From: the human T2T-CHM13v2.0 reference genome, Homo sapiens
Assembly (NCBI RefSeq): GCF_009914755.1
Contig: NC_060926.1
Direction: 5' to 3' (one strand)
DNA: 64,000 nucleotides
The stretch's first letter is position 1, and the number at the start of each line of letters is the position of its first letter. A program made the translations under genes and the position numbers. The notes beneath the pieces were generated by a model, which saw nothing but the letters and a program-made list of their open reading frames with translations, was not told the DNA's origin and made no database searches. This document shows positions 19,600 to 20,572 of this stretch, one piece after another.

Positions 19600-20572
19600 A
19601 AAAATCCTAGAGATTGTAGGAGATATACCAAGAGCAAAGAAAAAGGCAAACAGAGGTGGTTGGTGGTTTTATATGGCAAACCCTTCCCACTCCATAATTT
19701 CTCCTGGGACCGACAGAAAAATATAAAAGAATCAATAGATGTCCTGAGCCCATAGCCCACTTGTAAAGATAAAATGTTGCCTAGGTAAAATGGCGTAAGG
19801 AAAACAGGTATATCTATATAAAAACCAAAAAAAGTTAAAAATGAGTTTGCAAAGGATTATTTTTTAAATAGCTATTATTTGGGGAATGTTTATTGACAGT
19901 CACTGTTCTGAATCTTTTATATAAATATAATCTCGGCCGGGCGCGGTGGCTCACGCCTGTAATCCCAGCACTTTGGGAGGCCGAGGCGGGCGGATCACGA
20001 GGTCAGGAGATCGAGACCATCCCGGCTAAAACGGTGAAACCCCGTCTCTACTAAAAATACAAAAAAATTAGCCGGGCGTAGTGGCGGGCGCCTGTAGTCC
20101 CAGCTACTTGGGAGGCTGAGGCAGGAGAATGGCGTGAACCCGGGAGGCGGAGCTTGCAGTGAGCCGAGATCCCGCCACTGCACTCCAGCCTGGGCGACAG
20201 AGCGAGACTCCGTCTCAAAAAAAAAAAAAAAAAAAAAAAAAATCCTAGAGATTGTAGGAGATATACCAAGAGCAAAGAAAAAGGCAAACAGAGGTGGTTG
20301 GTGGTTTTATATGGCAAACCCTTCCCACTCCATAATTTCTCCTGGGACCGACAGAAAAATATAAAAGAATCAATAGATGTCCTGAGCCCATAGCCCACTT
20401 GTAAAGATAAAATGTTGCCTAGGTAAAATGGCGTAAGGAAAACAGGTATATCTATATAAAAACCAAAAAAAGTTAAAAATGAGTTTGCAAAGGATTATTT
20501 TTTAAATAGCTATTATTTGGGGAATGTTTATTGACAGTCACTGTTCTGAATCTTTTATATAAATATAATCTC
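19600..20572. repeat. 335-bp direct repeat (19600-19934 and 20238-20572) flanking an AluYa5
   Basis: Both copies run aaaaatcctagagattg...aaatataatctc; I saw no mismatch, and the ORF track shows the same peptide from both. Confidence 0.95.
19935..20237 (+). mobile_element. AluYa5
   Basis: Ya5 diagnostic motifs catcccggctaaaacgg, gcgtagtggc, ctacttggga, gagatcccgcc; CpGs intact; pure poly(A). Confidence 0.92.

What the first reader, a model, noticed from the sequence alone, without database searches (positions are those of the whole stretch)
19600..20572. AluYa5 with a 335-bp target-site duplication
Seen: the repeat starts at an L1-endonuclease-type site (catt|aaaaa, 19599/19600), ends exactly at the Alu 5' GGCCGGG, and resumes right after the poly(A). 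The copies look identical. Established: AluYa5 is a young, often polymorphic human subfamily and TSDs are normally about 7-20 bp. Inference: a very recent insertion with a distant second-strand nick. The empty allele would be 638 bp shorter, and recombination between the repeats could excise the Alu precisely. An assembly artefact at a heterozygous insertion is the main alternative.
Basis: partly seen in the sequence, partly recalled or inferred. Interest (0 to 1): 0.75.

Follow-up and report, generated by a model that had tools for sequence, protein, structure and literature searches.

The report
Alu insertion with 335-bp target duplication
A young Alu jumping-gene copy in an intron of the human BBS5 gene is flanked by an exact 335-base duplication instead of the usual 14 or so bases; a 638-base insertion of this size and place is catalogued in other people and absent from the GRCh38 reference, and it likely arose in one germline insertion whose second DNA break fell unusually far from the first.

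Summary
Real, and not an assembly artefact. Two identical 335-bp copies (19600-19934, 20238-20572) flank a full-length AluYa5-type element with a 21-A tail; the repeat begins at a TT|AAAAA endonuclease site and ends exactly at the Alu's first base. In 98 of 100 control copies of the same subfamily the flanking repeat was 3-20 bp, median 14. The HGSVC long-read call set lists chr2-169484990-INS-638 against GRCh38, the predicted size at the predicted place, in LD (r2 0.88) with a GWAS SNV 277 kb away. So the empty allele exists and other genomes carry the insertion. 'Very recent' is not supported: the allele is probably common and its tail is short. Most likely one L1-ORF2p-driven insertion whose second strand was resolved 335 bp away, as known for L1 in HeLa, repair-deficient and tumour cells. 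A two-step origin is not excluded. I found no published germline Alu with such a duplication, and several pipelines would filter it out. No effect on BBS5 is shown. A catalogued variant with an apparently unremarked, unusual anatomy.

The parts
19598..19604 (+). L1 endonuclease-type site TT|AAAAA, first-strand nick inferred at 19599/19600
   Evidence: sequence; consensus as stated in PMC2912911 and PMC3415434
19600..19934 (+). Copy 1 of the 335-bp duplicated target, unique intronic DNA, 33% GC, no unusual fold (z +0.44)
19935..20216 (+). Full-length AluYa5-type body, 282 bp, sense to BBS5; equals the majority of 98 control copies at every column except one extra A in the middle A-rich linker
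20217..20237 (+). Pure poly(A) tail, 21 nt (run of 26 with the first five bases of copy 2)
20238..20572 (+). Copy 2 of the 335-bp duplicated target, identical to copy 1; 20572/20573 is the inferred second-strand break
16944..22316 (+). Host: BBS5 intron 2 (5373 bp here, 4735 bp without the insertion); insertion lies 2657 bp after exon 2 and 1745 bp before exon 3
   Evidence: annotation given with the finding

Best explanation
An AluYa5-type element sits between two identical 335-bp copies of its target in BBS5 intron 2, and it likely got there in a single germline retrotransposition in which L1 ORF2p nicked at the TT|AAAAA site and copied the whole Alu RNA, while the other strand was likely broken or re-primed 335 bp downstream instead of about 14 bp, so that fill-in duplicated the stretch between. 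Shown: the anatomy, the abnormal length, and a catalogued 638-bp insertion against GRCh38 at this place. Inferred: that it was one event; that the far end came from an unrelated nick reached by strand displacement or from replication restart on the sister chromatid (the sequence cannot separate these); that the allele is common and neutral or nearly so.
For: All insertion hallmarks sit at base precision: endonuclease site at the start of the repeat, poly(A) joined to copy 2, copy 1 joined to Alu base 1 with no extra bases and no second short duplication. Empty allele inferred from chr2-169484990-INS-638. [quoted passage not shown] The unit's other end offers only weak endonuclease sites for an ordinary short duplication (AT|AAAT at 12 bp, TT|ATAT at 16 bp).
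Against: Alu does not normally do this even in HeLa: 192 de novo inserts had 5-27 bp repeats (PMC3415434); 1010 polymorphic Alus had up to 50 bp (PMC4666360); large duplications were said to be found at an appreciable rate only in HeLa (PMC4805530). The endonuclease motif discriminates only modestly: TT precedes 36 of 226 A-runs of 5 or more in the window (16%) against 38 of 98 control insertion sites (39%, counted by eye). No other haplotype sequence was seen; the catalogue row gives size and place only, and the GRCh38-CHM13 offset rests on a recalled gene coordinate, cross-checked by the linked SVA.
Confidence: 0.75

Rival explanations
1. Two steps: the Alu first inserted at the end of the unit with an ordinary short duplication; later a template switch or unequal exchange from its poly(A) tail to the five A's at 19600 on an empty homologue recopied the unit.
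For: Gives the same final sequence; A5 microhomology is present; the unit's end is AT-rich and could have held a 12-16 bp duplication; explains why Alu otherwise never shows such lengths.
Against: Needs two rare events at one site; the switch would have to land on a perfect endonuclease site (16% of A-runs); no intermediate allele appeared among the rows searched (only one SV id beginning chr2-169484 and none chr2-169485 in the held, cut supplement).
Confidence: 0.15
2. A 335-bp tandem duplication came first and the Alu inserted exactly at its junction leaving no short duplication of its own (a pseudo-TSD, as discussed for HERV-K).
For: The junction would read TC|AAAAA, a usable site (TC| occurs among control sites); pseudo-TSD models are discussed for HERV-K loci with 61-450 bp repeats (PMC5488345, passages).
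Against: A normal insertion there would leave unit + short repeat + Alu + unit; no short repeat exists. The perfect site at the outer start of copy 1 would be coincidence.
Confidence: 0.07
3. Assembly artefact in CHM13.
For: No raw reads were examined.
Against: An insertion of exactly 638 bp at the matching GRCh38 place was called in a set of 65 other genomes and had enough carriers for an LD value. CHM13 carries the linked SVA of the same haplotype. CHM13 is essentially homozygous (recalled).
Confidence: 0.02

Closest known systems
Canonical polymorphic AluYa5 insertion (target-primed reverse transcription)
   Same: Full-length body, subfamily sites, pure A tail, TT|AAAA site, presence/absence against GRCh38.
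   Different: Flanking duplication 335 bp against 3-20 bp in 98 controls, 5-27 bp in HeLa, 9-18 bp in sperm, at most 50 bp in 1010 polymorphic Alus.
L1 insertions with large target-site duplications (HeLa; XPA/XPC/XPD-deficient cells, PMC5223499) and L1-bridged tandem duplications in tumours
   Same: Element bridging two copies of hundreds of bases of target, endonuclease site at the poly(A) end.
   Different: Here the element is a trans-mobilised, full-length Alu, and the event is germline and segregates in people; in HeLa the extremely long duplications went with 5'-truncated L1 (as summarised in PMC2912911).
HERV-K (HML-2) loci with 61-450 bp flanking duplications (PMC5488345)
   Same: Germline, some polymorphic, same open question of true versus pseudo-TSD and of reversion by recombination.
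   Different: Integrase-driven LTR elements, not target-primed reverse transcription.
HGSVC variant chr2-169484990-INS-638 (PMC12350169, Suppl. Table 45)
   Same: Same size and, by offset, same place: almost certainly this allele.
   Different: Listed only as an insertion in an LD table; no remark on its anatomy in the passages or rows seen.

Membership tests
AluYa5 | Full-length dimeric Alu body of about 281 bp with A-rich linker and tail | tested here: met
   282-bp body, linker with one extra A, 21-A tail
AluYa5 | Five diagnostic substitutions relative to AluY (positions recalled as about 89, 96, 145, 174, 237) | tested here: met
   Against the AluY-type copy at 7734-8014 it differs at 89, 96, 146, 175, 238 plus three G-to-A sites. 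No Dfam or Repbase consensus was on hand: the name Ya5 and its sites are recalled.
AluYa5 | Near identity to the young subfamily's master sequence | tested here: met
   Equals the majority of 98 copies at all columns but the extra A; 2506 places in the genome share its 32-base diagnostic motif
AluYa5 | Human-specific (absent at the chimpanzee orthologue) | not testable with these tools
   No ape genomes held; absence from GRCh38 inferred
Canonical TPRT insertion | Endonuclease site TTTT/AA at the poly(A) end | tested here: met
   TT|AAAAA at 19599/19600
Canonical TPRT insertion | Short target-site duplication of about 5-30 bp | tested here: not met
   335 bp and no shorter one
Retrotransposition with large TSD (over 100 bp, as in PMC5223499) | Exact direct repeat over 100 bp abutting both ends of the element, single copy in the empty allele | tested here: met
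   empty allele by size and place only
Retrotransposition with large TSD (over 100 bp, as in PMC5223499) | Duplication and insertion arose in one event | not testable with these tools
   Needs many haplotype sequences; intermediates not surveyed

The most novel reading that the evidence does not exclude
This is a member of a small hidden class of germline Alu insertions with duplications of hundreds of bases, made by distal second-strand resolution in normal human germ cells and missed because pipelines cap the duplication at 30-50 bp or require the insert to be 80% repeat (here 47%); such alleles could revert cleanly by recombination between the copies, and a pangenome screen would measure how often second-strand cleavage is uncoupled from the first in vivo.
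Probability: 0.45. Interest if true: 0.6.

Novelty: new variant of a known kind. Interest (0 to 1): 0.45.

Why it matters
How the second strand is cut during L1/Alu insertion is still open, and long duplications have been treated as a quirk of HeLa, repair-deficient or tumour cells and of L1. A clean germline Alu case that segregates in people shows the outcome can be inherited, gives a natural substrate for testing precise Alu loss by recombination (Alu markers are assumed not to revert), and points to a blind spot in mobile-element catalogues. It is one locus, with no shown effect on BBS5.

Tried and rejected
Rfam scan of 17000-23000: no family. DNA search with the Alu body returned nothing because common words are skipped; a pattern search served instead. 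Two of 100 control loci (L017, L040) were not scored because my core motif, shifted three bases from the search pattern, was not found in them; duplications longer than the roughly 1-kb flanks would be missed, and values under about 8 bp may be chance. Three controls with high flank-to-flank scores (L024, L035, L102) were diverged repeats of 73-84% identity, not duplications. Fold of the unit not unusual, no G-quadruplex motif nearby. The 4-base identity between the end of the unit and the end of the Alu body was considered as a template-switch site and rejected, since the whole Alu is present. Archaic introgression of the long haplotype: no support found, not properly tested. Locus not found by coordinate in supplements of PMC12350158, PMC8934628, PMC8219666, PMC8492059, PMC7385971; several files are cut or hold no call lists, so this is no evidence of absence. 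GWAS trait of the linked SNV not identified. Two HGSVC-era papers were not held.

Full report
Observation. The window holds an exact direct repeat of 335 bp at 19600-19934 and 20238-20572. Between the copies lie a 282-bp Alu body (19935-20216) and 21 A. Copy 1 starts at CATT|AAAAA, ends at the base before the Alu's first G, and copy 2 follows the tail directly. There are no extra bases at the 5' junction and no second, short duplication. It is the longest exact repeat in the window and the unit matched only these two places in the genome. It lies in BBS5 intron 2, sense to the gene, 2657 bp after exon 2 and 1745 bp before exon 3.

The element. A 32-base motif from this Alu occurs 2506 times in the genome. 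I took the 100 listed places, all on chromosome 1, and scored 98; two were dropped because my core motif was not found. The window's Alu equals their majority at every column but one extra A in the linker. Against an AluY-type copy in the window it differs at five sites that I recall as the Ya5 diagnostics, plus three G-to-A sites. The label AluYa5 is therefore well supported, though no curated consensus was on hand.

How unusual. In the 98 controls the longest exact repeat abutting the element was 3-20 bp, median 14; the same script gave 335 for the window. The share of such cases is under about 3% by the rule of three. Published ranges agree: 5-27 bp in 192 de novo Alu inserts in HeLa (PMC3415434, passages), 9-18 bp in 43 sperm insertions (10.1101/2025.10.25.684559, passages), up to 50 bp in 1010 polymorphic Alus (PMC4666360, passages), median 21 bp in 1019 long-read genomes (PMC12350158, passages).

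Real and polymorphic. Supplementary Table 45 of PMC12350169 (SVs in high LD with GWAS SNPs; rows found by search) lists chr2-169484990-INS-638 against GRCh38, r2 0.880 with chr2-169761686-SNV-GA. The size is exactly unit + Alu + tail. As a cross-check, the same table links a 2523-bp insertion at 169,685,707 to that SNV (r2 0.881); at the predicted CHM13 place, within about 100 bp, there is an SVA of 2473 bp with an ordinary 12-bp duplication. The row gives no sequence, so identity rests on size and place. An LD value needs several carriers among the 65 other genomes, so a CHM13 assembly artefact is very unlikely. I did not find the locus in the mobile-element tables of that file, but the file is cut, so I cannot say whether the authors classed it as an Alu insertion.

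Age and frequency. Not measured. An SVA at hg19 2:170,542,228, which by a recalled offset is the linked SVA, was among the common elements (frequency 0.05-0.95) tested in GTEx (PMC7385971, supplement rows and passages). Since both insertions have r2 0.88 with one SNV, the Alu allele is probably common too (inference). Zero differences bound the age only to under about 5 million years with assumed mutation rates. The 21-nt tail is below the 22-148 nt range of de novo tails. So 'very recent' is overstated. The near-equal r2 of three SVs across 200 kb also suggests that reversion is not frequent at population scale (inference).

Mechanism. Established: ORF2p nicks at TTTT/AA, primes on the poly(A), and the offset of the second-strand cut sets the duplication length (PMC2912911, passages). 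For L1, duplications over 100 bp occur in up to 10% of HeLa inserts and in 57-91% of inserts in excision-repair-deficient cells, where a distal unrelated nick is proposed, and loss by recombination between the long repeats is predicted (PMC5223499, passages). Tumour and clone studies describe L1-bridged tandem duplications and propose break-induced replication or invasion of the sister chromatid. The locus fits this outcome at base precision, so I put a single event at 0.75. Against it: Alu has not shown this even in HeLa, and outside HeLa only canonical sizes were reported as of 2016 (PMC4805530, passages). The endonuclease motif is only modest evidence, 39% of control sites against 16% of random A-runs. 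The two-step rival (ordinary insertion at the unit's end, then a switch from the tail to the five A's on an empty homologue) gives the same sequence and gets 0.15; insertion into an earlier tandem duplication gets 0.07.

Function. None shown. The Alu is sense-oriented and far from exons; the nearest antisense Alus are over 4 kb away (15307-15584, 25133-25413). The held, cut part of the GTEx eQTL file has no row for this Alu or for BBS5, whereas the linked SVA has 28 rows for five other genes. In PMC8492059 the listed SV for BBS5 is a different one and not significant (q 0.75). The GWAS link is to a SNV 277 kb away whose trait I could not identify; nothing singles out this Alu as causal.

Novelty. 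The variant is catalogued; the kind of outcome is known for L1, and long flanking repeats are known for HERV-K in the germline (PMC5488345, passages). Searches for an Alu with such a duplication or for an Alu in BBS5 (listings only, apart from the papers cited) found no description of this locus or of a comparable germline Alu. The library lacks most subscription papers and preprint supplements, which may hold such cases. Pipelines would tend to hide them: one study limited duplications to 5-30 bp, another keeps inserts that are at least 80% repeat, whereas the Alu and tail are 303 of 638 bp here. Verdict: a new variant of a known kind, interest 0.45.

Noticed in passing
window 39977-41754 (BBS5 last exon, 3' UTR): A 1763-bp SVA insertion with a 15-bp target duplication whose first 250 bp match two chromosome 14 stretches 4 kb apart at 99-100%: two spliced exons of a D-aminoacyl-tRNA deacylase gene (Pfam PF02580, E 4e-4, below cut-off; the name DTD2 is recalled) joined to the SVA Alu-like part, with an ATG-led frame running into the SVA. 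Looks like an exon-trapped, 5'-transducing SVA carried in BBS5 mRNA. SVA and BBS5 occur together in PMC3794087 (search listing only); no listing linked SVA to this gene.
   Followed up: partly
window 19297-19436 against 19747-19874: An older, diverged local repeat of about 140 bp (spacing about 445) overlaps the duplicated unit's interior; not at either breakpoint, and no dispersed copies were found.
   Followed up: partly
L103:4856-7340 (CHM13 chr2, about 170.163 Mb): Polymorphic SVA on the same haplotype, 12-bp duplication; apparently the common GTEx SVA with eQTL rows for five nearby genes. Three SVs over 200 kb share r2 0.88 with one GWAS SNV.
   Followed up: partly
window 1-3182: A 3-kb AT-rich minisatellite with a 29-bp period and long exact internal repeats.
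   Followed up: no
window 15019-15130: Three near-perfect tandem copies of a 37-bp unit in BBS5 intron 1 (97% matches).
   Followed up: no
window 31695-32131: A second Ya5-like Alu (31828-32108, 8 substitutions, mostly G-to-A) preceded by an extra Alu monomer; no clear target duplication found.
   Followed up: no
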